64,000 nt of DNA from a virus (Duplodnaviria; Caudoviricetes). Each line of letters opens with the position of its first letter. Position 1 is the stretch's first letter. Where the stretch lies: the IMG/VR virus record IMGVR_UViG_3300025597_000009, positions 1 through 64,000 of that record; one strand, 5' to 3'. Both the position numbers and the translations under genes were made by a program. The notes under the pieces are model-generated. The model worked only from the letters and a program-made list of their open reading frames with translations, was not told the origin of the DNA and did no database searches. This document shows, one piece after another, positions 34,013-63,806 of the stretch.

Positions 34013-37000
34013 TTATTTCTGCCAGTGAGTTGCCATTTTCATGGAAGATTGCATACTAAGTCCAATCAAGTAACTGGACCCAACTTCTTCCATAATTTCC
34101 CTAATTCGTTTAGCAATATCTTCTCGACCTTTTGGGATTTGTACTACAAGTTCATCATGCACACTCAATTTGATACTACAGTCAGGCTGTGTTAGTATAT
34201 AATTATGCACAGCTATAGTAGCTTCTTTTAACATGGAAGCAGCTGAGGCTTGGATCATTTTATTACCCTACTTGCTCTTTATCAAGTAGTTCTGAATATT
34301 TCTATTCAGTTTCGACTATATCACAGCGTAAGTATTTAATTATGTTTTGACTAAAGTCTAATAGTTCTCCAGGCGTTGCATTGTTTTTCATAGTGTTAGC
34401 TTTCATTGAGATAATTCTACAATTATCTGGAGTATATCCAAAATCAAGTCTAACCCTATCAATAGAAGGGGAATTTATTGGTAAGTTAGCTTCATCTAAC
34501 AACGGAATGTTTAATAAAGGGCAGTACTTGGGAATTTTCAAAGATTCAAGTGTTAAACTAAAATCAAGTCCTTTTTCTGCTGCTCTTTTTTTAGCATTTC
34601 TTACCAAAGTGGTCATAATTCTTCTTTTATAGGATTCTTTTCTAAGCTTAGAAAGCCTTTCCTTAAATTCAGTGTCCTTATGAACCCTTTCTCTTCTTTG
34701 TTTATTAATAGCATCTCTTCTACCTGTATTGTGCTCATTATGATAAGCATTAAAACAATCTCTACATTTTCCTGTAGGATAGCTACAATAGCTTTTCTTC
34801 CCTGACTTTAATACATTGTATTTTGTCATTATAGGGAAAGCACTTATTGGTAGTTCCTGTTTACATCTAGTACAAACTTTACTAGTTTTTTCCTTTTTCA
34901 TAACGTCTGAATTGATTCTCAAACTTATAAAATGAGGAATTAACTTTCATAACTATAACTAATTATGCTTACACCCTGGACACTCGTGTTAGGATTATTG
35001 TCTACAATAACTCACCTATTAGTCTGTGAACTTTCCCCATACTTTTATTTGCTTTCAGGGGCTTAGCTGCTGATTATCCAATTTTTCAACTTTTCAAACA
35101 TTCACAATTGCCATTTCTAGCTTTGTTGTAGTGTTAAAAACTCTAAGGATTTTCCAGCAATTCATCCAGTTTTACTTTCCCTATCCATTAAGGAAAATTG
35201 ACACCTTCTTTTTCTACTTCATAGTCCTCAGACATTTTCTTAGTAAACCAATTGAACCGTCTGATTCTATTGATTTTACTACCACATCTGACTTCCATGT
35301 TATTAACTACTTTCCGTTTAATCTTCTGCTGATACTCATGTAGTGCTTTTAGATTGGCTTGTAGCTTAGCTAATACTTTCTTGGCCACAGGCACTTCAAT
35401 GTTAAGAACAGCAGCAATCCTGGCAGCTCCTCCACCAAAGAGAACAATTATGTTATCTCATCAGCTCTTTATCTGATGATTCTACAGTTTCATTTTTAGA
35501 TTATATCTGTAGTTCAGACTATATCATAAGTATTTTAAAGAAAATACTCCCGGACGCTCGTGTTAACTTCATCACTGTTCTAGTGGTATGTTATTAGTCG
35601 TTGAACCTTCTAAGTATCCCTACTTAGCTTGGCTGCTGATTATCTATCTCTAGTTTTCCCAGCAGTTCATCCGGTTTTTTTTGGGCTATCTCACAAGCTA
35701 AATCAAATTTCCTTTTTAAATAATAGGCCGCATCTTTGTAAAGATAATTTATCAATTGCTTAGTTTGCTTCTGGTTCATTTCAAGTCTATAGGTTACTGT
35801 GTTAGTATAAGAAGTTTCTGACCATTTGATTATACTACCTAGATGTAATTCTAAAAAATTACATAATTTATCAAACAACTTTTTTGAACATGAAACAAAC
35901 CCAGACCTATGCTTTGCACTAAAATGCCCATCTCCATCCATTAATCCTCTAACAAAATCCCAAGTAAACTCAAATTCAGGATTTACTATTATGGATTTTT
36001 TAGCGGGTATTCCTAATGAAGTTATAAATTTATGCAAGTCTTTATGGCCAAATAAAACTTCATAACATTCATTAACTTTGTATATACTTATATTCACACC
36101 TAAAAACTTTTGAAATTGTTCAAGAAGTTCTTTATCTTTTTGAACAATAGAAATAGTTTTTTTTGTTGACCCTAAATTCCCATCTGTTACAATTATACCT
36201 AACCAGTACATTGCACTATGGTTCAATTTTGTAAAACAACTTATATCTTGAAGTACTCTATTTTTCCCTCCACTACCTTCTAAAGGTATATTGTGCTTCT
36301 TATAAGTTTTTATTACAAATGGCCTCCCATAACCAAACATAGTACAAATTTGATTAGGGGTGTGACAATAAGCATACTCAAGTATTTTAAGTTCTTTATA
36401 ATTATAAAAGTTAAAATTTAAACTTTTTGAAACTTTTTGTACTTGATGGTAAGAGATGTTAAGTTCCTCTGCAATTGATTTTATTGATGCACCCTTTTCT
36501 AATTTTTCTTTAATTTGATCTAGCATTTTATTCATTATTTACTTATGTAAAAATAATGAATTTTTTGACAATTATTCAACCCAAACAAAACAGGTTTGTG
36601 GGGATCTCTTAGTTCTCCATTTACTTCTTTGCTAACAATGAATGTAGGGTCACCTCTAATGATCCGGTGTGTGTCCTGAGCCAGGAAAGAGTGTAAATCC
36701 ATTCCTTTATTAAAGTTATCCAGTAGGGCTTGATCCTGGCTATAGGAAGCAGCTAACCTTAACTCTTGATTAGATAAATCCACATCCACAAATACATAAT
36801 CCTCAGAGTCAGGAACAAAGCATTGTCTGATCTCTTTAATAGCTGGAAGATTTTGCATATTAGGATTATTGCTGGATAACCGACCAGTAGCAGTAAAGCA
36901 TTGAGAAAAATCAGAATGAATCCTTTTTGTAACTGGATTGATATACTTTAAAAAGTTATCTCCATAAGTACTGATTAGCTTACTATACTCCCTGTGTTTA

Positions 37001-44815: not shown

Positions 44816-44923
44816 CCCAGGGAAAAGGAATCGAACCTCTATACAAACTGATTCAGTTAATGAAAGCCTATTATTGGCTTTTATAAAACCTCAGTTTTGC
44901 TCTACCAGTTGAGCTATCCCCGG
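44816..44923 (-). ncRNA. tRNA-like RNA with expanded anticodon arm
   Basis: Acceptor CCGGGGA/TCCCTGG, D-arm TAGCTCAACTGGTAGAGC, T-arm AGAGG-TTCGATT-CCTTT. 43 nt sit where the 7-nt anticodon loop should be. Confidence 0.75.
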
Positions 44924-49650: not shown

Positions 49651-50964
49651 TTAATCAGCTTTTACACTAAATTCCTGATAAGAACCACCAGATCGAATAC
49701 AAAACTTCTGCATTCCTTCATGATCACCTTCCAGGATAAATCCATGGGTTACCACTTTAGGATACCAGCCTTCTTTAATATGGTCTTGGCCATCATTGAT
49801 AATACAAATCTGTGGTCTATCCCCATTAAAGCTAACCTCACCTTCTTTTGTAGGTACACTACCTTTTTTAATAAATTCAATAGTGTTCTCAATTGCTCGT
49901 TGCATGTCAGTACCTCCTCTACCAAATTGGAAATACTTATTAAACTTTTCCCATACATGCAGACATTCTTCTCTAGTCTTGATAACTAACCAATGAGGGT
50001 CTAGGCGGCTTTCAAATGTGCAAATGTAGAGTTCAGCATTTCCCTGACTTACCTGTTCACACCGATTTAGTAGTAAGGCTTTTACCCACCCAATTTTATC
50101 TGAATCATGCATGGAACCAGAGTCATCAATAAGCAGAATAAGTACTTGCTTATTGAAGCTAATTCTAACCCCCTTTTTGATCTCCAGTTGCTTGGTAGCC
50201 ACTTTATAATTAAAGGTGGGCATAGCTAATTGAATAGCTCCAACTTTTTGTACTTCAGAGTATTGCTGTATACGCAACATCCGTGTCTTCCTGGCACTAG
50301 GATCATCTTCTTTGGATTTTGATCTATATGCTTTGATATTTCCTTTCCTGTTTAAAATGGAAAGCTTTTTCAATACATCCAGATTTTCAGCACCTAGTTG
50401 GCCAGCTCGAACACCATTGAATACAGAGGGATCTTGATCCCCTAGTAAAGCTTTCTCAGTGAAACTGTCAGCTGGCATAATTTTACCAACCATCTCAGCA
50501 TTCTCTTTTAGCTTTTTAGCAATATTGGCTCCTGATTGGTTTCCCTGGAATATAGGAAGTTCTTCTTCTTCAGTAGCTCCTCCTTTACCTTTACGGCCAC
50601 CTGCTCCCTGATTAGAAAGAGAATGGGCAATGTTTAAGGCTTGTTCCAGCGGAGTATCCCCATTGAAAACTGATACATCAATGTTCTTTAAGAATTCCTG
50701 AGCTTTCTTATTGAACTCAAACACACGTTCCTCTGCCTTTTCCTGAGTCTCCCCTTCTTTAGGTTCTACATTATCATAGTTCCAGGTAGAAGGTTTGGTA
50801 AAAGCTTTAGCACGTTCATCTTCAGGAAATGAAGTTAGATTGGCAATATCCTGTACTAATTGTACTGAATATGTACCCTGTAAATTCATTTTCTTCACTA
50901 CATGCTCAATCTCTTTTTTGGATGGAGTGATGTAGTTTTTGTGGGGTACAGTTCGTTGGATCAT
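49651..50964 (-). CDS. vWA-domain protein (partner of the MoxR-like ATPase)
   Basis: MIDAS LIDDSGSM, GGTD, INDG. Confidence 0.85.
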   Translation of the reverse strand: MIQRTVPHKNYITPSKKEIEHVVKKMNLQGTYSVQLVQDIANLTSFPEDERAKAFTKPSTWNYDNVEPKEGETQEKAEERVFEFNKKAQEFLKNIDVSVFNGDTPLEQALNIAHSLSNQGAGGRKGKGGATEEEELPIFQGNQSGANIAKKLKENAEMVGKIMPADSFTEKALLGDQDPSVFNGVRAGQLGAENLDVLKKLSILNRKGNIKAYRSKSKEDDPSARKTRMLRIQQYSEVQKVGAIQLAMPTFNYKVATKQLEIKKGVRISFNKQVLILLIDDSGSMHDSDKIGWVKALLLNRCEQVSQGNAELYICTFESRLDPHWLVIKTREECLHVWEKFNKYFQFGRGGTDMQRAIENTIEFIKKGSVPTKEGEVSFNGDRPQICIINDGQDHIKEGWYPKVVTHGFILEGDHEGMQKFCIRSGGSYQEFSVKAD

Positions 50965-50967
50965 TGA

Positions 50968-53291
50968 TTAGGCTAGTGCTCCTAAGAAGTTCAAATCAGT
51001 ATCAGCATTGGTTTTTTCCAAGGCATTATCCAGACAGGTTTTCTGGTATGTTTTCCAGATTTCCCGAAGTTTTTTGTATTGTGGCTGAAACTCATCTCTG
51101 AAGGATTGATCATCCAGAAACTTAATAACTCTCTCAGCTGCTTTACTGTACTGGATGTACCGGATAGGGGTATTCTTATCCACTGGAGGCAAATCAGAAA
51201 GCTGTTTGTGCATAGCATTAAACTTCTCTCTTTCCTGCCGAATAGCTTCAAATTCTTCCATTTGAGACTCAATCTCATTTACATGGTGAGGATCAAAGCC
51301 AGCTACATACTTCAGCCCAGACAAGCCAGCTGTGTTGTACACAATAGCTGCCTTAACAGCTGTTCTTGGAGAAATGAAATTGTTTCTACTTACTTCAGCC
51401 ACAATTTGGGCAAACGTATGCATGGGTTTTTTGAGCACTTTATCAAACAGGAGTGCATAATCTTCCTGATTGTAAGTTTCCCATTCTACCCGGTGCTCTA
51501 AAGGAAAACGCTCCATCAAGGCTTTGATAGAATCATCCTCAGCAATTTCTTCCCGGCTTCTGTTGGTACAAACTACAATACACTTGGTTTTGATGGGTAC
51601 TTGCTGATTTCCATTTCTGAACTGTTTTGAAGTTAGAATATCCTTGAGCTGTTCTAATACGGCTGTAGGAGCATCCAAACCTTCTTCCAGTATAACATAC
51701 TCATGGCTCATGAAACTCCGTTCAATATTATATTCAATGGCACCATGGTCTTGAAATTCTTTCATTTTCAATCCCCCTAACAAGGATTCTATTGTTGAGC
51801 CCTGGCCAAGTGATTGAATAAACGGCTTTTCATCAATAGCCTTAAAGAATGCTTCACTCATTTCACTTTTCTAATTGTTATTAACCACAGGCTTTTTATC
51901 CTGTGCTCTGGAAGTTTCCCTCATTTTCATCAGTTGGTCATTTCCAACTCAGTATAGCATATATTTTCACCTCCAACTCAATGGTAAGGTGGGGAACACT
52001 CGTGGTAGTATTATAGTCTGTTTTACAGGATCAACTACTATGCGTTACACTACCAATAAATCTTTAAGTTATTGGTTAGCTCGGTATTAGCACTTCACTT
52101 TGAGCCTTCACCGATTTTGCTCCCTCATAATCCAAGATATTTCTATCCTGGACGGCAAATCCAAAATTCTTGAAAAGTTGGTATCTGTTGTACTTTCTAT
52201 CTAAATGCAAAGAACTAGTTTCATATAGCTTTTTTAAAATATCAATACTGTCTGGACAACTATAAGAAGTCTCAAAAACAAAGTGGCTTGCTGTTTCTTC
52301 AGAGTTAGCCAATAAGTAATTTCTTTCCCTATAGTTTAAGACCTTGTTAATACCTTGTAAAACATCTTTAGTGCCTAAAAATTTAACAATTGGTTTGTAT
52401 CCACTTGTGGTATGTGTAAATGTAAAGCAACCATCACCATCAAAGTAACCTCTTACAAAAGCTAGTTGATGTTTATTAGGTAGTTGATTTTCAGACGGAA
52501 ATAGTAAAGTTTCAGATTTTTTAGGAGTACATCCTAAACTAATTAGATCTAATCTCATTTGTTTACTATAAAAACAATATCGAGCAGCTTTCCCATCTTT
52601 AGTTAGATAGATTTTATTATCTGCCTTTATAAATTGCTTAAATTTTAACAAATGGTTCATATCACTAATTTTTAATCCTAGTTCAATAGCATTTGTAGTC
52701 GAATGGATTGCACCATCTGCATACAAAAACCCAAGCCAGTAAGCTTTTTCATCAGTATCAATAGTTGAAAAGAGATTATGTTGAGTTCCTCTTTCATTTT
52801 GTCTATTGATAATCTGTATTCCATTAGCTTTGAGTATTTTAGATATTCTTTCTGGTCTTGTTTTGAACATTTTACCTATTTTTTCCAAACTGTAACCTTG
52901 CTTATAATACTGTATGTATTCTTCAGCTGTACCTAATGTTTGATTTTGTTGATTTAATACACATACCCCCTTACTTCTTAGATACTTATTAATAATGTAA
53001 GGTGAATTCCCAAATTGTTTTACAAGAGAAGCTATACTTCTTTGATTTACAACATACTCATACTCAATTAATTTACCTAACTCCTCTTCCATATCTACAC
53101 ATATTTAACTATATGTAAATATACGAATTTTAGATGTGTTTACCATGTCCACCTTTCCCAAACAAGACTACATTTTCATTTGTTATGTACCCTAGGTGTA
53201 GAATTTCAGCAACTTGATCTACATAAATGAAGTTTTTGTTAAGAGCTTCTTTAACAGCTTCTAATGAAATAGAGGTTCCTTTAGATTTCAT
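50968..53291 (-). CDS. MoxR/RavA-like AAA+ ATPase, spliced (exons 53291-53142 and 51870-50968; 350 aa)
   Basis: Exon 1 MKSKGTSIS...ENVVLFGKGGHG plus exon 2 KSEMSEAFF restore Walker A GKGGHGKS. Also Walker B ILEE, CTN, ALMERF, ISPR. Confidence 0.85.
51871..53141 (-). mobile_element. Group I intron within the Walker A codons of the AAA+ gene
   Basis: Exon ends CATGGT (U); guide TTTGCCGT lies near the ORF end. Core AAAATCGGTGAA, AATACCGAG, GTGTAACGCATAG, ATATGCTATAC. Ends ...ACAATTAG|AAA. Confidence 0.85.
52076..53092 (-). CDS. Intron-encoded LAGLIDADG homing endonuclease
   Basis: YWLGFLYADG and FVRGYFDGDG; two N-terminal HTH repeats. Confidence 0.9.
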   Translation of the reverse strand: MEEELGKLIEYEYVVNQRSIASLVKQFGNSPYIINKYLRSKGVCVLNQQNQTLGTAEEYIQYYKQGYSLEKIGKMFKTRPERISKILKANGIQIINRQNERGTQHNLFSTIDTDEKAYWLGFLYADGAIHSTTNAIELGLKISDMNHLLKFKQFIKADNKIYLTKDGKAARYCFYSKQMRLDLISLGCTPKKSETLLFPSENQLPNKHQLAFVRGYFDGDGCFTFTHTTSGYKPIVKFLGTKDVLQGINKVLNYRERNYLLANSEETASHFVFETSYSCPDSIDILKKLYETSSLHLDRKYNRYQLFKNFGFAVQDRNILDYEGAKSVKAQSEVLIPS

Positions 53292-54104: not shown

Positions 54105-54734
54105 TTAGGCAGCTACTTTATACAATGTACCCTGAATCTTGAGTGTTTTGATAGTCTGAAGATTCACCTGCCGAATACAATCATGAGGTGTTGTTTTCTT
54201 CTTACTTAACTCAACCACTTTCACATACCCTAACACATTTGGGTCCTGACCAGACAAGTATTGACCATTAAGCACCCTTTCTTCCCCTTTCTTTTTCTTA
54301 AAGGTTACAGTAAAGAAACGGCCACCAGCATTGCTCATCAGCTCAAAAGCCTTTTTCTTGCCAATTTTTATGACTTTAGAAGGTTGTTGAACTGGCAGAG
54401 CAGGAGTAGCTACAGCATTAGCTGCAATAGCTTGACCAAAAGCAGCTTGTACATCAGGAGTTTGCAAATTTGTCATGGTAATGTTTGGGTCTGAATAAAT
54501 TCTGAATACACCTGTATCCTCAAAGGTAAATAGGCCTTGAGCAGTAAATCCTTGCATAAGCTTACTTACCAGTTCCTGAGTCCAATTGTATTCTGGGTGA
54601 TCTTCCCTGAGCTTTAATTTTATCTCCAGGGTGGTTACTCGATTGGTAGCTTTGAGCAGTTGTAAGGCTGCATCTAAACAAAGTTGATCTCTTTTACTCA
54701 TGATTTGAGCCAAATCACTTTTTTTATATGGCAC
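54105..54734 (-). CDS. wHTH-like N-terminal plus SH3/WYL-like C-terminal domain protein (likely start MSKRD)
   Basis: VTTLEIKLKLR...WTQELVS; GRFFTVTFKKKKGEERVLNG...IRQVNLQTI. Confidence 0.55.
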   Translation of the reverse strand: MPYKKSDLAQIMSKRDQLCLDAALQLLKATNRVTTLEIKLKLREDHPEYNWTQELVSKLMQGFTAQGLFTFEDTGVFRIYSDPNITMTNLQTPDVQAAFGQAIAANAVATPALPVQQPSKVIKIGKKKAFELMSNAGGRFFTVTFKKKKGEERVLNGQYLSGQDPNVLGYVKVVELSKKKTTPHDCIRQVNLQTIKTLKIQGTLYKVAA

Positions 54735-55906
54735 TGTGACTCATTATAGGCTATGATTTCTGAATTCAATAGCCCATTACCAGCACTAACAAAGGTGCTG
54801 TCAAATCCACGTTCCTTTAGGTTTTTATAGGTAAGAGCAAATTCATTCCCTCTAAACCATCCCTCATACTTAAAAGGATTTCCCACATGTACTTCATACA
54901 CCAGGATTACCTTGTCTGAGTCATATCCAGTATAACCCAATGATTTAGCCATTGTCTCACTGAAATAATTCCCATCACCATACGCTTTACCACTGAACTG
55001 AAAATTCCCTGTTGGTCTGATCTTTAAACCCTGTTCCAGAATTGGAAGTACTGAAGTACATCTTGTACCATGAATGAGTGTTCTGGTCTGTCTGTTCTCT
55101 TGGGAACTCATCCACTGGTTAAATGCTTCATCTTCCCTGGTTTTCTTCACAGAAAATACAGCATGTACTTTTCCAGATCGTCCATGATAGCCTGAACTGA
55201 AATTTTGATCCAGCAAATACTGAATATCAGCATAATCCTCTGTTTCTTCCATTTCAATTCCCAACATATCCAGTAAGGATTGTTGTAACGTGACCTCTGC
55301 TTGGGTTGCTGGCTTTTTGCTAAGCAGTGCAACCTGTGAGGCAATTGCATCCAGATTATCTTGTTCCTGTTCAAAGACTTTGTCTAGGTTAATATTGGGT
55401 AGTAAGTAATCTCCTACTCTGCCCATGTATCTAGGGATCACTGTGTAGATTTCAATCAGCTTTTTGTTAATTGTCAGGGTATCCAGCCGATTTAAAACAC
55501 TCAACTCATTGATTAGCTTTTGAGCAGCTTCTAACTGATGTTGAGTTACCTGAGTAGCTTTAACTGAGTAGGTTTTTCTAACCAAATTATCCCGATAACT
55601 CTGCATGAGCTTTAAAAACTCAGCTACCTTTCTACTAACAGTGTCACCAATAATTGGCTGAGTATCTGTAACAGGATCATCTACTACAGTTGTAGCTACT
55701 AATTCAGTTACATCTTTGTAACCTTTAGCAATCTTTTCCCTTTTCAGGCTATTCCACTTGCTATAAGGATAAGACTTACTAGTGGATGTGCTTTCTACCC
55801 TGCCATAATTGACAGTAAAATTAGCTCCACCAGTATAGACCATCTCGTAGAATTTATTATTGTTACCACTGGTTACCATTAGTAACTTACAATAATCTTG
55901 TTGCAT
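54698..55906 (-). CDS. WGR-domain PARP-family ADP-ribosyltransferase
   Basis: NNKFYEM...YGRV...KIAKGY (WGR), IYTVIPR helical regulatory segment, LIHGT, GKAYGDGNYFS, KSLGY, NSEIIAYN (H-Y-E triad). Confidence 0.88.
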   Translation of the reverse strand: MQQDYCKLLMVTSGNNNKFYEMVYTGGANFTVNYGRVESTSTSKSYPYSKWNSLKREKIAKGYKDVTELVATTVVDDPVTDTQPIIGDTVSRKVAEFLKLMQSYRDNLVRKTYSVKATQVTQHQLEAAQKLINELSVLNRLDTLTINKKLIEIYTVIPRYMGRVGDYLLPNINLDKVFEQEQDNLDAIASQVALLSKKPATQAEVTLQQSLLDMLGIEMEETEDYADIQYLLDQNFSSGYHGRSGKVHAVFSVKKTREDEAFNQWMSSQENRQTRTLIHGTRCTSVLPILEQGLKIRPTGNFQFSGKAYGDGNYFSETMAKSLGYTGYDSDKVILVYEVHVGNPFKYEGWFRGNEFALTYKNLKERGFDSTFVSAGNGLLNSEIIAYNESQCHIKKVIWLKS

Positions 55907-56001
55907 ATAGTAATTGAAGTTTCTTTTAGAAATTAGAAGAAAAAGTACCCAGCCAGCTTAGCCAGCTGGATAACCCGACTCATAACCTAAATACTCTTGT
56001 C

Positions 56002-58230
56002 TTAATCAGCCAGGAGTTGAGTCACTCCAGCTACATCTTTAGCCCAGTCCAGATCATAGACTTCATTGGCCTCAGCTGGCTCACTGATAATAGTAAGCCC
56101 TTGAGCTAAGGCTTTTATTACTAGTAACTTCTGAATACTGAATTTGGCAGATAGCTTATTGAGCATAGCCTTTACATTGTCCATACCACTTTTACCTGCA
56201 TTACCTGTTTGGGGCATTTCTAGCCAGACAATTTGTTCAGCCTGAAGATCCAGGTAACCAAAAATCAACCCTTGACCTAATTCTGATTTAACAGAAATCA
56301 TCTGCTCTACACAGGAAGGATCAAAAGCAACTCCAGATGCAGTTACTTTCATAGGATTTGTAGAAGCCATCCAACCTACTCTCAGATTCATTTCCAGAGC
56401 ACTCTTATTATAAGCTCTGCAATGGAAGATCACACCAGAGGCCCCATTAGCTTGTAGCTTTTCTACATCCAGGTTAATAAATTCAGCTGTACCAATCTTA
56501 TTAGGAATGTGTTGAATATCCCCTGAATGAGTGGCCCCTGTAATGTTAAGGTGACCGAAGTAGCAGATGTCTGTATGATTTGGATAGACCACATCAGCAT
56601 ACAAATCCATATCTAGGTGTTGAGCTGGTAATCCTTCTCCCCAATTCATAAACAGTCTGACTTGTTTAGATTGTAGTGGGAATCGTTGTCCTTGCAAGAA
56701 ATGAGCTAAGTCCTGTACAGTTTCTGATCTGTCTCCAATGCTAAATGGAATGTACTCAAGATCAGGATGAATGTACATGGTTTTGTTTTCATTAGGAGTA
56801 GCAGCAAATCTCTGGAAGATAGCTTCATCTACTAAGGACTCAACTAGTTCCATGTATTGCTTTCTTTCTGTAGCTGACATAACTGCTACCAATGGATGTG
56901 GGTCAATAGTTTTAGTTAATCCAGCTCCTAATGGTTTTACCACTCTAGTTTGACCAGAAAAGTAAACTTTAGCAGCCTGAGTTAATGTAACAATGAGCCT
57001 CATAGGTAGCTTAGTAAGCACTTCTTTAAACGCATCCATAACTAGGGCAGCATCATACTTCAGCAACAAACTAAATAGCATTCTAGAAAATACTCCTGGA
57101 CGTTGTTTTAGTAAGTGCAATCCTAGAGTAAGACTGTGCTCTTTCATGGCCTTGTTGACCAAATGAGCCCAACCTAAACCAGTACCTTGATTTTGGAAGA
57201 TATACAGCAGATCCTTTAGTCGCTCAAAACCAGCTTGCTTGGCAAACTCATTCAATCTAGCTGCTCTGATGAACCTAACCCACATTTCTCTGTGAGGATT
57301 CATAGAGTCTAATACTGGCCTGATGCCATCAAATTCATTCATCCACTCAGCAATCTTCCTGGCTTCTGGTCTAGAATACTTTAGTTTCAGTTGCTCCTTT
57401 TTATTGGCAACCTCACTAGTATTCACAGAACTCCGGTATCTACTGTAGCCTCTTCTACTATCTCTTGCTGTTTTGTTGAGAATAGTCTTAGGCTTAACAA
57501 TCTGAAGATTACCCGTATGTTTATACCACAGATATCTTAACACATCAGAAGGCAGCTTAAAAAGCTTACTAGCTTCTTTACGTTTACCCAAGGCTACCAA
57601 TTGATCCACCAGGAACATTTTGGTTTCAATCATGCCTACTTCTACCTCTGGTACTGGGTAGATTTCTAGCAAGGTTAACACAGCTTCTTTCTGTGTACCA
57701 TCTAAAGGAGTCTTAGACTTCAACAGATTATCAAAGTAGTTCAGTAACTCCCGGTCTCCCCATAGCTTGAGTATTTTCAGCTTAGAACCCTGGCCTACTG
57801 GAATCTCCATATCAGCCTCAAAAGGAGTACCACAAAAAGGGCAACCATTGTACTTTTCCAGCTCAAACACATTGGCCGGGATAGTGTGTCCACAAACTAA
57901 AGTAGTTCCTGATCCACCAACTAACTGGTTAAACCAGGTAAGCACATGAGCAAACTCACTGTCTTTAGGTGGCACATCCCACTGTTTGATCAGAGGAGTC
58001 CAATTTAATTTGCTGCCTGTAACAGTCCTTACAAAATCCACATACAAATCCTGAAATTCTTCTGTGGTTGTTTTCCAGATAGACAGGGCTTTTGAGTCCA
58101 ATGTATAGCCTAGTTCCTTCAATTTAGCTAGGTTTACAAAGGTGGAGACCCAGTTCTGAACACTGGTAATCTCTTGGGCAGGCACATAGATAGCACCTTG
58201 CCGAATGGCAATTTTGTTGTGTTTTTCCAT
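56002..58230 (-). CDS. Large protein with prokaryotic RING-like Zn finger, helical core and C-terminal TerD-like domain
   Basis: CGH...YNGCPFCG, DVLRY, RPGVFSRML, VRLFMNW, DMDL, HSGDI, TAEFINLD. Confidence 0.75.
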   Translation of the reverse strand: MEKHNKIAIRQGAIYVPAQEITSVQNWVSTFVNLAKLKELGYTLDSKALSIWKTTTEEFQDLYVDFVRTVTGSKLNWTPLIKQWDVPPKDSEFAHVLTWFNQLVGGSGTTLVCGHTIPANVFELEKYNGCPFCGTPFEADMEIPVGQGSKLKILKLWGDRELLNYFDNLLKSKTPLDGTQKEAVLTLLEIYPVPEVEVGMIETKMFLVDQLVALGKRKEASKLFKLPSDVLRYLWYKHTGNLQIVKPKTILNKTARDSRRGYSRYRSSVNTSEVANKKEQLKLKYSRPEARKIAEWMNEFDGIRPVLDSMNPHREMWVRFIRAARLNEFAKQAGFERLKDLLYIFQNQGTGLGWAHLVNKAMKEHSLTLGLHLLKQRPGVFSRMLFSLLLKYDAALVMDAFKEVLTKLPMRLIVTLTQAAKVYFSGQTRVVKPLGAGLTKTIDPHPLVAVMSATERKQYMELVESLVDEAIFQRFAATPNENKTMYIHPDLEYIPFSIGDRSETVQDLAHFLQGQRFPLQSKQVRLFMNWGEGLPAQHLDMDLYADVVYPNHTDICYFGHLNITGATHSGDIQHIPNKIGTAEFINLDVEKLQANGASGVIFHCRAYNKSALEMNLRVGWMASTNPMKVTASGVAFDPSCVEQMISVKSELGQGLIFGYLDLQAEQIVWLEMPQTGNAGKSGMDNVKAMLNKLSAKFSIQKLLVIKALAQGLTIISEPAEANEVYDLDWAKDVAGVTQLLAD

Positions 58231-58237
58231 AAAAGAG

Positions 58238-58295
58238 AAGGTAATTACAGAGCTATAGGAGCTTTTTTAGTGAGAAGTAAGCTCTGTTTGACCTT
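58238..58295 (-). promoter_or_regulatory. Y-RNA-like structured 5' leader of the RING-TerD gene
   Basis: AAGGT-C-AA-ACAGAGCT-TACTTCT...AGCTCTGT-AA-TT-ACCTT; ends 7 nt before the ATG. Confidence 0.75.
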
Positions 58296-58923
58296 ATTTA
58301 TTTTTGATGATTTTAATGGCTTTAATTACCAACTGGATGGTTTCTTTTCTGGCTTCCAAATAACCAGTTCTTATGAATGGTGTAATGAGTGTGTGTTTGG
58401 GGCTACAATACTGTTCTAACTCAACACTTTCAGGGGCATGTACATGGCCCACTAAAGTACCAACAGTAAAAGAACTACAGATATAGACACTCAAGCTAAA
58501 TTCATGCAAAGCCCACATTACAATCTGATCAAATGTAGGAGCTCTAAACATAACGTTAGAGTCTATACGTGGATTGAATGGAGGTAAGAGGTCTTCATTA
58601 CCTAAGTAAATTTCTTTATCCTTCCCAGTATAATAACCCAAAGTAGGCCAGTCAAAACCTAATTTTTTAAACTCCAGTGATTCTTCATAAGAAAGAAAGG
58701 TCTCTCCCAAAGTTGGAATTGGCTCAAAGGTTTCATTAGCTTCTAAATAAGCCATGATTGTTTCATCACTTGGGCTTTCAGGCAGTTCTTTATGATAAAT
58801 CAAGCTATCAATTAGGTTTGCACCATGTTTGACTTTGCTTTCCTTTACTTCTGCAATAATCTGCTCTTGACTTCCATAGTATTTCCTTACCATGTCCAGC
58901 ATTTTGAATTGTCTGATCTTCAT
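58294..58923 (-). CDS. Hypothetical protein
   Basis: FLSYEESLEFKKLGFD...APTFDQIVMW, a Bacteroidota phage motif. Confidence 0.65.
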   Translation of the reverse strand: MKIRQFKMLDMVRKYYGSQEQIIAEVKESKVKHGANLIDSLIYHKELPESPSDETIMAYLEANETFEPIPTLGETFLSYEESLEFKKLGFDWPTLGYYTGKDKEIYLGNEDLLPPFNPRIDSNVMFRAPTFDQIVMWALHEFSLSVYICSSFTVGTLVGHVHAPESVELEQYCSPKHTLITPFIRTGYLEARKETIQLVIKAIKIIKNK

Positions 58924-62766: not shown

Positions 62767-62892
62767 GGCCAGGTAATCGTGATTGTATTTCAGTCTTTTG
62801 CTCTACCAACTGAGCTATACCAGCGTTAGCTGATACCAGGAATTGAACCTGGGACCCAAAGTTTTTAGAAGTAACATTCACTTGACCTGACC
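62767..62892 (-). ncRNA. Y-RNA-like (YrlA-like) RNA with a circularly permuted tRNA module
   Basis: Bulged-C terminal helix GGTCAGGT-C-AA/TT-ACCTGGCC enclosing T-arm CCAGG-TTCAATT-CCTGG, a closed acceptor-like hairpin, then D-arm GCTCAGTTGGTAGAGC. Confidence 0.8.
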
Positions 62893-62899
62893 AATAAGG

Positions 62900-62971
62900 A
62901 AGTCTGGTAATCAATAATGTAATTACCTGTTTCAAAAAGTTTTTAGAAGTAACATTATTTTGACCAGACTC
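62900..62971 (-). ncRNA. Y-RNA-like RNA, minimal
   Basis: GAGTCTGGT-C-AA-AATAATGT-TACTTCTAAAAAC...ACATTATT-GA-TT-ACCAGACTT. Confidence 0.75.
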
Positions 62972-63044: not shown

Positions 63045-63127
63045 GGGTTAATAAAGCAATCATTCAACTATTTTCGTAGTCATCATAGAGTTGTAGAAGT
63101 AAGTTGAATTTGGCCTTATTAATAAGA

Positions 63128-63200
63128 AAATCAGGTAATCCATACACTAATTTCAGTTTACCAATCTGTTTTTAGAAGTAAGTGTGTGTTGACCTGATCT
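63128..63200 (-). ncRNA. Y-RNA-like RNA, minimal
   Basis: AGATCAGGT-C-AA-CACACACT-TACTTCTAAAAAC...AGTGTATG-GA-TT-ACCTGATTT. Confidence 0.75.
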
Positions 63201-63798: not shown

Positions 63799-63806
63799 CA
63801 AAGATA
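63799..63806 (-). promoter_or_regulatory. Bacteroidota-type -7 promoter element upstream of the tRNA/ncRNA cluster
   Basis: TATCTTTG on the minus strand, ~75 nt before the first Y-like RNA. Confidence 0.5.

What the first reader, a model, noticed from the sequence alone, without database searches (positions are those of the whole stretch)
56002..58295. The RING/helical/TerD gene carries the same RNA motif as its 5' leader: candidate cognate RNA-binding protein with autoregulation
Seen: the fifth, minimal copy of the Y-like motif fills the gap between the upstream stop codon (58294-58296) and a point 7 nt before the ATG (58230) of the 742-aa gene, over 4 kb from the other copies. The protein has a CGH...CPFC Zn finger, a long helical core and a TerD-like C-terminus. 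Inference: RNA-binding proteins often repress their own translation through a mimic of their ligand. This links the protein to the four free RNAs as a Ro60-analogous RNP (helical toroid plus TerD in place of vWA), with the free RNAs titrating it.
Basis: partly seen in the sequence, partly recalled or inferred. Interest (0 to 1): 0.82.

Follow-up and report, generated by a model that had tools for sequence, protein, structure and literature searches.

The report
Ro-like protein gene with Y-RNA leader
A phage gene for a ring-shaped, Ro60-like RNA-binding protein starts right after a copy of the small-RNA "handle" that the protein most likely binds. The same layout recurs across Bacteroidota bacteria, which points to an undescribed Ro/Y-RNA-type particle that may limit its own production.

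Summary
A 54-63 nt hairpin (GGUCAA, 7-bp stem, UUACUUCU loop, stem, A, AUUACC) fills the gap between the upstream stop codon and a point 7 nt before the ATG of the 742-aa gene. Five further copies, not four, lie among tRNAs 4.5 kb upstream.

The protein has a one-zinc RING-like knuckle, an alpha-solenoid and a TerD beta-sandwich. In an unbiased search of 48,161 chains, the three best structural matches of the solenoid were the three Ro60 entries of the PDB.

In 80 Bacteroidota loci holding a 43-46% identical homolog, 344 strict motif hits lie within 1.5 kb upstream on the gene's strand, against 3 elsewhere. In about 20 diverse lineages a minimal copy ends 8-33 nt before the ATG, including a 36%-identity homolog. 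The stems covary strongly. RtcB follows the gene in 29 of the 80 loci. Related hairpins flank 26-27% identical homologs in other phages.

The Ro60-like RNP reading is therefore well supported (about 0.85). Autoregulation through the leader copy is plausible (about 0.45) but untested. The main rival is a co-transcribed, YrlB-like small RNA.

An earlier follow-up in this scan on the same genome (e1-5843642) reached the same RNA-protein link. Neither Rfam nor the searched literature describes it.

The parts
56002..58230 (-). Gene for the 742-aa RING-like / TROVE-like / TerD protein (P0001)
   Evidence: ORF and translation. More than 3,000 homologs. AF2 model with pLDDT 90.4. NCBIfam NF041916 RING_SCO0854, 112 bits over the full length but below the cut-off.
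57832..57894 (-). Zn knuckle, residues 113-133 (CGH...CPFC)
   Evidence: Pfam Prok-RING_4 E 1.7e-3 in P0001, and matched in 52 of 55 family members. C113, C130, P131 and C133 are (nearly) invariant.
56791..57753 (-). Alpha-solenoid, about residues 160-480, TROVE-like
   Evidence: Domain model with pLDDT 93.8. VIA-align wide: ranks 1-3 of 48,161 are Ro60 entries 9l5y_B (Z 8.8, 235 aligned), 2nvo_A (Z 8.0, 243) and 1yvp_A (Z 7.3, 246).
56155..56679 (-). TerD-fold beta-sandwich, about residues 518-692
   Evidence: 2qz7_B Z 12.8 and 2kxt Z 11.2. Foldseek probability 1.0 to TerD entries. Pfam TerD matched in 6 of 55 members. D540, D542, G570, D571 and E583 are invariant.
58236..58298 (-). Leader copy F of the Y-like hairpin (helix 58238-58295), minimal form
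   Evidence: R1 65.4 bits (it is one of the four sequences R1 was built from). R2 47.4 bits, E 3e-8. Fold energy -14.2 kcal/mol, z -3.2.
58294..58923 (-). Upstream ORF (209 aa, no family hit). Its TAA stop forms the base of the leader helix.
55946..55972 (-). Terminator-like hairpin (12 bp plus a U-run) just after the gene's stop codon
63641..63721 (-). Free copy A
   Evidence: Held out of R1, found at E 2e-7
63129..63199 (-). Free copy B
63050..63120 (-).
62901..62970 (-). Free copy D
62767..62892 (-). Free copy E, with a tRNA-like module in its loop (T arm, acceptor, D arm)
   Evidence: Held out of R1, found at E 1e-6. Rfam YrlA RF02553 32.5 bits, E 8e-6, below the gathering score of 69.
63799..63806 (-). 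TATCTTTG, a match to the Bacteroidota -7 promoter box, ahead of the tRNA / Y-like cluster
   Evidence: This is a pattern match only: TAnnTTTG occurs 58 times in the window against 86 expected, so it is not enriched.

Best explanation
The gene encodes a Ro60-like RNA-binding protein. It has a TROVE-like alpha-solenoid, closed or decorated by a TerD beta-sandwich where Ro60 has its vWA domain, and a one-zinc RING-like knuckle near the N-terminus.

Its cognate ligands are the Y-RNA-like hairpins. Their conserved handle is GGU, a bulged C, AA paired to UU, then ACC, followed by a covarying stem and a UUACUUC strand. This resembles the Ro60-binding helix of Y RNAs. Five of these RNAs are made from the tRNA cluster.

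The sixth copy is part of the protein's own mRNA. It sits between the upstream stop codon and position -7, and no terminator-like site of the canonical kind was found between the upstream ORF and the gene.

Inferred mechanism: when the protein exceeds the free Y-like RNAs, it binds this leader copy. A roughly 85-kDa protein clamped 7 nt from the AUG (mostly 14-22 nt in Bacteroidota, range 8-33) would block 30S loading, so synthesis follows the pool of free RNA.

Shown here: the motif, its structure and covariation, the fold of the protein, and the conserved gene-motif linkage and spacing. Inferred: binding, repression and titration.
For: Fold: the helical domain's three best matches among 48,161 chains are the three Ro60 entries, each covering 235-246 of 333 residues; the unrelated repeat proteins that align with comparable rmsd (under 7 Å) cover about 90-110, and the few longer alignments have rmsd of 10 Å or more. 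The same entries rank 3, 5 and 9 with the whole protein. The C-terminal domain has the TerD fold (Z 12.8).

RNA: 93% of cells are paired against 68% in shuffles. 13 of 16 pairs show double changes. Slid controls give 31-50%.

Linkage: 284 R1 hits, nearly all on the gene's strand within about 800 nt upstream, in 80 Bacteroidota loci. The strict regex gives 344 upstream hits against 3 elsewhere.

Leader position: the helix ends 8-33 nt (mostly 14-22) before the ATG in 20 diverse lineages. In Flavobacterium the distance from the 3' handle to the ATG is 21-22 nt. A 36%-identity homolog has a copy about 21 nt before its ATG, E 1.5e-9. In another (L090) a single copy follows a TAACTTTG -7 box by about 7 nt, so there the hairpin would be the 5' end of the transcript.

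Phage-specific argument: the free copies moved 4.5 kb away into the tRNA cluster, but one copy stayed glued to the ORF.

Subclass: proximal copies are always minimal (50-69 nt, no tRNA module). They are enriched for a G.U in the handle, 12/18 against 9/49, Fisher p 3e-4, not corrected for phylogeny.

Ro-like context: RtcB lies directly downstream in 29 of 80 loci. The vertebrate and bacterial Ro-binding motifs GGUCCGA and GNCGAA resemble GGUCAA (PMC4201824).
Against: No binding or expression data exist.

The Z scores to Ro60 (7.3-8.8) lie in the range that helical repeats can reach by chance. Pfam TROVE does not match any of the 55 family members.

In real Ro60 systems, Y RNAs lie just upstream of rsr and are processed from one precursor (PMC4201824). 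No autoregulation in those systems is known to me.

Rhodococcus phage Weasels2 has three related hairpins downstream of its homolog and none in the 13-nt gap upstream.

About 8 of 70 measured Bacteroidota loci have no copy within 35 nt of the ATG.

The phage leader copy carries the canonical G-C handle, not the G.U form.

A ribosome terminating on the upstream ORF would melt the base of the helix.
Confidence: 0.45

Rival explanations
1. The copy in front of the gene is one more Y-like small-RNA gene, a minimal YrlB-like member. It is co-transcribed with the protein gene and released by processing or by partial termination. It is bound by the protein in trans like the other copies and does not regulate the mRNA.
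For: [quoted passage not shown]

In bacteria the proximal copy is the last unit of a head-to-tail array of 3-9 units, often directly preceded by a tRNA-like module that would attract RNase P or Z.

Several proximal copies are followed by U-runs, which would give a free RNA (L036, L076, L090, L096).

Weasels2 places its copies downstream of the gene.
Against: This reading does not explain the narrow spacing to the ATG across orders. It does not explain why the phage kept exactly one copy on the ORF after the others moved. It does not explain why proximal copies form a minimal, G.U-enriched subclass.

It is also compatible with feedback, because cleavage and regulation are not exclusive.
Confidence: 0.3
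2. The hairpin acts in cis but not as a translational operator. It could be a 5' stabiliser of the mRNA left after tRNA-like punctuation cleavage. It could also be a terminator or attenuator, in which the lower stem plus a U-rich tail (UUCUCUUUU in the phage) stops transcription before the ORF, with or without help from the protein.
For: A U-rich tail follows the phage helix and several bacterial ones. The mean is 5.25 T in 10 nt for proximal copies against 4.2 for distal copies.

L090, L092 and L091 have runs of 7, 8 and 7 U directly after the stem, and L096 has a U-rich tail (UUUUCAUUUUU).
Against: The U enrichment is weak in AT-rich genomes, and many proximal copies lack a U-run. The hairpin has a large loop and an interrupted stem, unlike intrinsic terminators. 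The terminator scan did not call it.
Confidence: 0.12
3. The hairpins are not ligands of this protein. The linkage reflects a shared operon with another factor (for example RtcB or a tRNA enzyme), or the UUACUUC strand works by base-pairing with another RNA.
For: No binding data exist. UUACUUC is the best conserved element, even in Weasels2 where the handle differs. tRNA-like modules suggest that tRNA enzymes act on these RNAs.
Against: Among the neighbouring genes examined, only this protein gene travels with the motif across Bacteroidota, two distant phages and 27-36% identical homologs. RtcB is present in only 29 of 80 loci and absent from the phage record. The Ro60-like fold predicts exactly this kind of ligand.
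Confidence: 0.08

Closest known systems
Ro60/Rsr with Y RNAs (YrlA, YrlB, Yrn1), including phage Ro60 (mycobacteriophages, Thermus phage phiLo)
   Same: A TROVE-type alpha-solenoid fold. Small RNAs whose 5' and 3' ends form a helix with a bulged C next to a GGUC-like motif. Some of the RNAs carry tRNA-like modules. The RNA genes lie next to the protein gene on the same strand. RtcB is a frequent neighbour. The system also occurs in phages.
   Different: There is no detectable TROVE sequence signature. A TerD beta-sandwich replaces the vWA/MIDAS domain. There is an added N-terminal helical domain with a Zn knuckle. The handle is GGUCAA rather than GNCGAA or GGUCCGA. There is an extra invariant UUACUUC strand. 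The RNAs form arrays of up to 9 units. One minimal copy sits at a fixed short distance from the start codon. The RNAs do not reach the Rfam YrlA threshold.
Autoregulatory leaders that mimic the protein's primary RNA ligand (E. coli thrS operator mimicking the tRNA-Thr anticodon arm; ribosomal-protein leaders such as S15, L1, L20; T4 RegA; MS2 coat operator). From general knowledge.
   Same: A copy of the ligand's recognition element lies in the protein's own mRNA next to the initiation region. A pool of higher-abundance free ligand could titrate the protein.
   Different: Here the leader element is a full member of the ligand family rather than a partial mimic. Regulation has not been demonstrated. 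Bacteroidota lack Shine-Dalgarno-dependent initiation, so occlusion would act on the A/U-rich leader.
Pfam PF14447 Prok-RING_4 / NCBIfam NF041916 MXAN_6230/SCO0854 family RING domain-containing protein
   Same: The same superfamily and overall architecture. The NCBIfam model aligns to residues 10-695 of P0001. As I recall it, the Pfam entry text already describes a RING finger fused to Ro/TROVE-like repeats and a C-terminal TerD domain and guesses a role in RNA processing. That is from memory and was not checked here.
   Different: P0001 scores below both curated cut-offs (18.7 against 27 bits; 112 against 600 bits). No RNA partner is recorded for either family in what I could search.

Membership tests
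Ro60/Rsr (TROVE + vWA) | TROVE domain detectable by sequence (Pfam PF05731) | tested here: not met
   No TROVE hit at E<=1 in any of the 55 family members. A PDB profile search gives no Ro60 hit.
Ro60/Rsr (TROVE + vWA) | HEAT-like alpha-solenoid with the Ro60 ring fold | tested here: inconclusive
   VIA-align wide ranks the three Ro60 entries 1-3 of 48,161 (Z 8.8, 8.0, 7.3; 235-246 residues aligned; rmsd 4.7-6.5). Foldseek finds nothing. The Z values are within the range that helical repeats can reach by chance.
Ro60/Rsr (TROVE + vWA) | C-terminal vWA domain with a MIDAS site | tested here: not met
   The C-terminal domain has the TerD fold (2qz7_B Z 12.8; 2kxt Z 11.2).
Ro60/Rsr (TROVE + vWA) | Y-type RNA genes adjacent on the same strand | tested here: met
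   344 strict motif hits upstream on the same strand against 3 elsewhere in 80 loci. Six copies in the phage, all on the gene's strand.
Ro60/Rsr (TROVE + vWA) | The protein binds the bulged helix of the RNA | not testable with these tools
   Needs EMSA, RIP or a structure.
YrlA RNA (Rfam RF02553) | Score at or above the gathering threshold (69 bits) over the whole model | tested here: not met
   Copy E scores 32.5 bits over the tRNA-like module only, model positions 23-88. The leader copy has no YrlA hit.
Prok-RING_4 (PF14447) / RING_SCO0854 (NF041916) | Score above the curated cut-off | tested here: not met
   P0001 scores 18.7 bits against a cut-off of 27, and 112 bits against 600. However, 52 of 55 relatives match PF14447 at E<=1 (best 2e-7). 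P0001 is therefore a distant member of the superfamily.
TerD domain | TerD beta-sandwich fold | tested here: met
   Z 12.8 with 150 residues aligned, and Z 11.2 with 155. Foldseek probability 1.0. Pfam TerD matched in 6 of 55 relatives.
Ligand-mimic autoregulatory leader | Element in the protein's own mRNA that shares the ligand's recognition features | tested here: met
   The leader copy keeps GGUCAA, the stem, UUACUUCU and AUUACC. R2 gives 47.4 bits.
Ligand-mimic autoregulatory leader | Element adjoins or overlaps the translation initiation region | tested here: met
   7 nt in the phage. 8-33 nt, mostly 14-22, in 20 diverse lineages.
Ligand-mimic autoregulatory leader | Protein-dependent repression of its own expression | not testable with these tools
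   Needs reporter and toeprint assays.

The most novel reading that the evidence does not exclude
Bacteroidota, and phages of several phyla, carry a second and so far undescribed lineage of Ro-type ribonucleoprotein. It consists of a RING-like / TROVE-like / TerD protein and arrays of Y-like and tRNA-mimic RNAs that share a GGUCAA...UUACUUC handle. The protein's synthesis is set by a built-in copy of that handle in its own 5' leader. The phage version would be a self-limiting RNA-surveillance or tRNA-repair module deployed during infection, next to its own tRNAs and a PARP-like enzyme.
Probability: 0.35. Interest if true: 0.85.

Novelty: new variant of a known kind. Interest (0 to 1): 0.72.

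Why it matters
Ro60/Y-RNA particles are conserved from bacteria to humans, yet their bacterial roles are known from only a few species. This locus points to a parallel, very widespread system: more than 3,000 proteins and 1,126 clusters at 50% identity. It has a different closing domain and its own RNA family, which is absent from Rfam. In many Flavobacterium and Chitinophaga genomes it is tied to RtcB.

It offers a genetically tractable host (Flavobacterium johnsoniae) and a simple hypothesis that can be falsified: feedback through the leader copy. It would also explain what phages gain by carrying Y-like RNAs among their tRNAs.

Tried and rejected
- Foldseek against the PDB found only the TerD domain for the whole protein. 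It found nothing significant for the helical domain alone (best E 0.039, no Ro60).
- A profile search of PDB sequences gave only weak RING E3 hits.
- Pfam TROVE is not detected in any family member.
- Rfam at gathering thresholds finds only tRNAs, plus one group I intron in the window, in the window and in ten bacterial loci. No existing family covers the hairpin. The leader region gives only noise hits.
- No DNA-level relatives were found in the phage collection. Two scans of IMG/VR with peptide patterns found no relatives, and the first alignment was too diverse to seed a scan.
- PADLOC gives no defence-system match for the protein or its neighbours.
- There is no RtcB in the (43% complete) phage record.
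- The TAnnTTTG promoter pattern is not enriched in the window (58 found against 86 expected), so promoter placement near the gene cannot be argued from it.
- The idea that this protein simply replaces canonical Ro60 is rejected. TROVE is absent from 4 of 5 host genomes tested but present twice in the Raineya genome.
- The U-run or terminator idea has only weak support.
- Literature searches for YrlA, TROVE/TerD/RING/RtcB and SCO0854/MXAN_6230 found no description of this RNP.
- The Atlas structure library was not available.
Full report
**Observation**

The minus strand holds a 742-aa ORF at 56002..58230. The preceding ORF (58294..58923) ends in TAA at 58296-58294. The 63 nt between them read GGUCAA, a 7-nt stem arm, UUACUUCU, a 19-nt loop, the complementary arm, A, AUU and ACC. 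The AA of the stop codon pairs with the UU that follow ACC, so the helix ends 7 nt before the AUG.

The composite pattern GGTCAA-N5-20-TTACTTCT occurs four times against 0.04 expected. With GGYCAA it occurs six times in the whole 100.6-kb virus record, all on the gene's strand. A covariance model built from four copies found the two copies left out, at E 2e-7 and 1e-6. A second model built from 134 sequences (128 bacterial hits plus the six window copies) again finds exactly these six in the window. All six fold into the same shape.

There are therefore five other copies, not four; 63050-63120 was missed. They are interleaved with tRNA-Arg, Ile, Lys and Gln. One of them (62767-62892) carries a T arm, acceptor stem and D arm in its loop. 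It gives a partial Rfam YrlA match of 32.5 bits, E 8e-6, below the gathering score of 69.

**The protein**

Pfam gives only a weak Prok-RING_4 hit on residues 112-135. NCBIfam aligns NF041916 (MXAN_6230/SCO0854 RING-domain family) over residues 10-695 at 112 bits, far below its equivalog cut-off.

The family is large. There are 3,379 hits among the 8,000 candidates scored, the closest about 46% identical and mostly from Flavobacterium and other Bacteroidota. There are 1,126 clusters at 50% identity.

An AF2 model from 55 diverse members has pLDDT 90.4. The C-terminal domain (about residues 518-692) has the TerD fold: 2qz7_B Z 12.8, 2kxt Z 11.2, Foldseek probability 1.0. D540, D542, G570, D571 and E583 are invariant there. 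Whether they form the Ca2+ site known from TerD is an inference.

The helical core was modelled alone (residues 150-482, pLDDT 93.8) and aligned to all 48,161 PDB representatives. It has the three Ro60 entries as ranks 1, 2 and 3:
- Thermus phage phiLo Ro60, 9l5y_B: Z 8.8, 235 residues aligned.
- D. radiodurans Rsr, 2nvo_A: Z 8.0, 243 residues aligned.
- Xenopus Ro60 with RNA, 1yvp_A: Z 7.3, 246 residues aligned.

All three alignments fall on the TROVE part of Ro60. Other repeat proteins that align with comparable rmsd (under 7 Å) cover only about 90-110 residues, and the few longer alignments have rmsd of 10 Å or more. With the whole protein the same three entries rank 3, 5 and 9.

The Z values alone are not decisive for a helical protein. 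Foldseek and sequence profiles do not see the similarity. I therefore call the core TROVE-like at the fold level, with homology probable but not proven.

Yes. I fetched 80 Bacteroidota loci with homologs of 43-46% identity. The phage-derived model gave 284 hits, nearly all on the gene's strand within about 800 nt upstream. A strict regular expression gives 344 hits in the 1.5 kb upstream on the same strand and 3 anywhere else on either strand. 77 of the 80 loci have 1-9 copies, and the other three have no upstream DNA in the contig.

On the 134 best hits, 93% of cells pair against 68% in shuffles and 31-50% in slid controls. 13 of 16 pairs show compensatory changes. The handle (G-C, G-C/U, U-A, bulged C, A-U, A-U) hardly varies. 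This is a genuine structured RNA family. Rfam 15 has no family for it.

The bacterial arrays also contain tRNA-like units with the motif embedded.

RtcB follows the protein gene directly in 29 of the 80 loci, in Flavobacterium and Chitinophaga. This echoes the rsr-Y RNA-rtcBA operons.

More distant relatives show the same link:
- Rhodococcus phage Weasels2 (26% identity) has three hairpins with UUACUUC immediately downstream of the gene. It also has a tRNA cluster upstream and RtcB nearby.
- Rhodobacter phage RcXuper has a partial YrlA hit and a tmRNA in the gap upstream.
- A 27%-identity phage-like contig has two hairpins with a CUUCCUUCU variant upstream.

Among the neighbouring genes examined, only the protein gene travels with the RNA everywhere.

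**The leader copy specifically**

In Flavobacterium the last unit's 3' handle ends 21-22 nt before the ATG. I then took 27 non-Flavobacterium lineages (Chitinophagales, Cytophagales, Sphingobacteriales, Bacteroidales, Saprospirales and others), two Flavobacterium loci and four homologs of 31-36% identity. In 20 of these, a copy's helix ends 8-33 nt, mostly 14-22 nt, before the ATG.

- The spacer is A/U-rich, as expected for Bacteroidota initiation regions.
- Units abut one another, so there is no room for a promoter between the last unit and the ATG. The hairpin must be transcribed as part of the mRNA precursor.
- In one distant locus (L090) a single copy lies about 7 nt after a TAACTTTG -7 box, so there the transcript would begin with the hairpin.
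- Proximal copies are always the minimal form (50-69 nt).
- Proximal copies more often have a G.U in the handle: 12/18 against 9/49, Fisher p 3e-4, not corrected for shared ancestry.
- In the phage the free copies sit 4.5 kb away in the tRNA cluster, yet one copy stayed on the ORF.
- A strong terminator-like hairpin follows the gene, so the gene ends its transcription unit.

**Interpretation**

These facts argue that the proximal copy has a function tied in cis to the gene. The simplest such function is feedback: the protein binds the same handle on its own mRNA and blocks 30S loading, and the free RNAs compete for it.

None of this is shown, and I put it at about 0.45. The chief rival (0.3) is the documented Ro60 pattern, in which YrlA and YrlB lie upstream of rsr and are cut from one precursor (PMC4201824). 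On that reading the copy is simply the last small-RNA gene. The tRNA-like unit that often precedes it, and the U-runs that sometimes follow it, fit that reading. The two readings are not exclusive.

Smaller rivals are a cis stabiliser or attenuator (0.12) and a ligand of some other factor (0.08). That the protein and the RNA family form an RNP of the Ro/Y type I hold at about 0.85.

**Comparison with what is known**

It works like Ro60/Rsr with Y RNAs. It fails membership on two defining features that I tested: there is no TROVE sequence signature, and TerD stands in place of vWA. The RNAs also fail the YrlA threshold.

It belongs to the Prok-RING_4 / RING_SCO0854 superfamily as a distant member. 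From memory, the Pfam entry for that family already notes Ro/TROVE-like repeats and a TerD domain and guesses a role in RNA processing. I could not check that text here. I found no paper that names an RNA partner.

A canonical TROVE protein is absent from four of the five host genomes tested but present in one, so the two systems can coexist.

An earlier follow-up in this scan on the same genome (e1-5843642) reported the same RNA-protein linkage. I re-derived it independently here.

**Verdict**

This is a new variant of a known kind of system, of clear interest to RNA biologists and directly testable in Flavobacterium.

Noticed in passing
window 54698-55906 (-): The gene right after the terminator encodes a WGR + PARP catalytic-domain protein (Pfam PARP E 1.4e-17; phrog_23333). 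None of the 80 bacterial loci has a relative of it next to the homolog.
   Followed up: partly
window 49651-51861 (-): A MoxR-type AAA+ ATPase (bpMoxR, E 3.7e-10) and a vWA protein (VWA_2, E 1.3e-7) form a pair a few kb downstream of the Ro-like gene. The vWA domain that this Ro-like protein lacks is thus present as a separate gene nearby.
   Followed up: no
window 44816-44923 (-): A 108-nt Rfam tRNA hit (43.6 bits) that ARAGORN does not call. It is a tRNA-shaped sequence with an extra hairpin inserted in the anticodon region. It carries no GGUCAA/UUACUUC motif.
   Followed up: partly
window 35495-35727 (-): A group I intron (Rfam RF00028, 58.2 bits, above the gathering score) inside the gene run around 34302-36535.
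   Followed up: no
L088 (Rhodobacter phage RcXuper) 3011-3544: A phage-encoded permuted (alpha-type) tmRNA (106-108 bits), followed by a partial YrlA-like element (40.7 bits). Both lie in the 1.9-kb gene-free gap upstream of the distant homolog RCXUPER_7.
   Followed up: partly
L087 (Rhodococcus phage Weasels2) 6113-6471: Three hairpins with the UUACUUC loop and a variant handle in the unannotated gap just downstream of gp266. RtcB (gp256) lies 3 kb further on.
   Followed up: partly
L007 3618-3734 and similar units in L015, L035, L074, L075, L080, L067, L056: Bacterial arrays contain 115-131 nt units that score as tRNA (41-55 bits). The GGUCAA...UUACUUC element is inserted where the anticodon and variable region would be. 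This topology differs from the permuted module of phage copy E.
   Followed up: partly
window 52076-53092 (-): A LAGLIDADG-type homing endonuclease ORF (phrog_4645, E 8e-50) lies between the PARP gene region and the MoxR/vWA pair.
   Followed up: no
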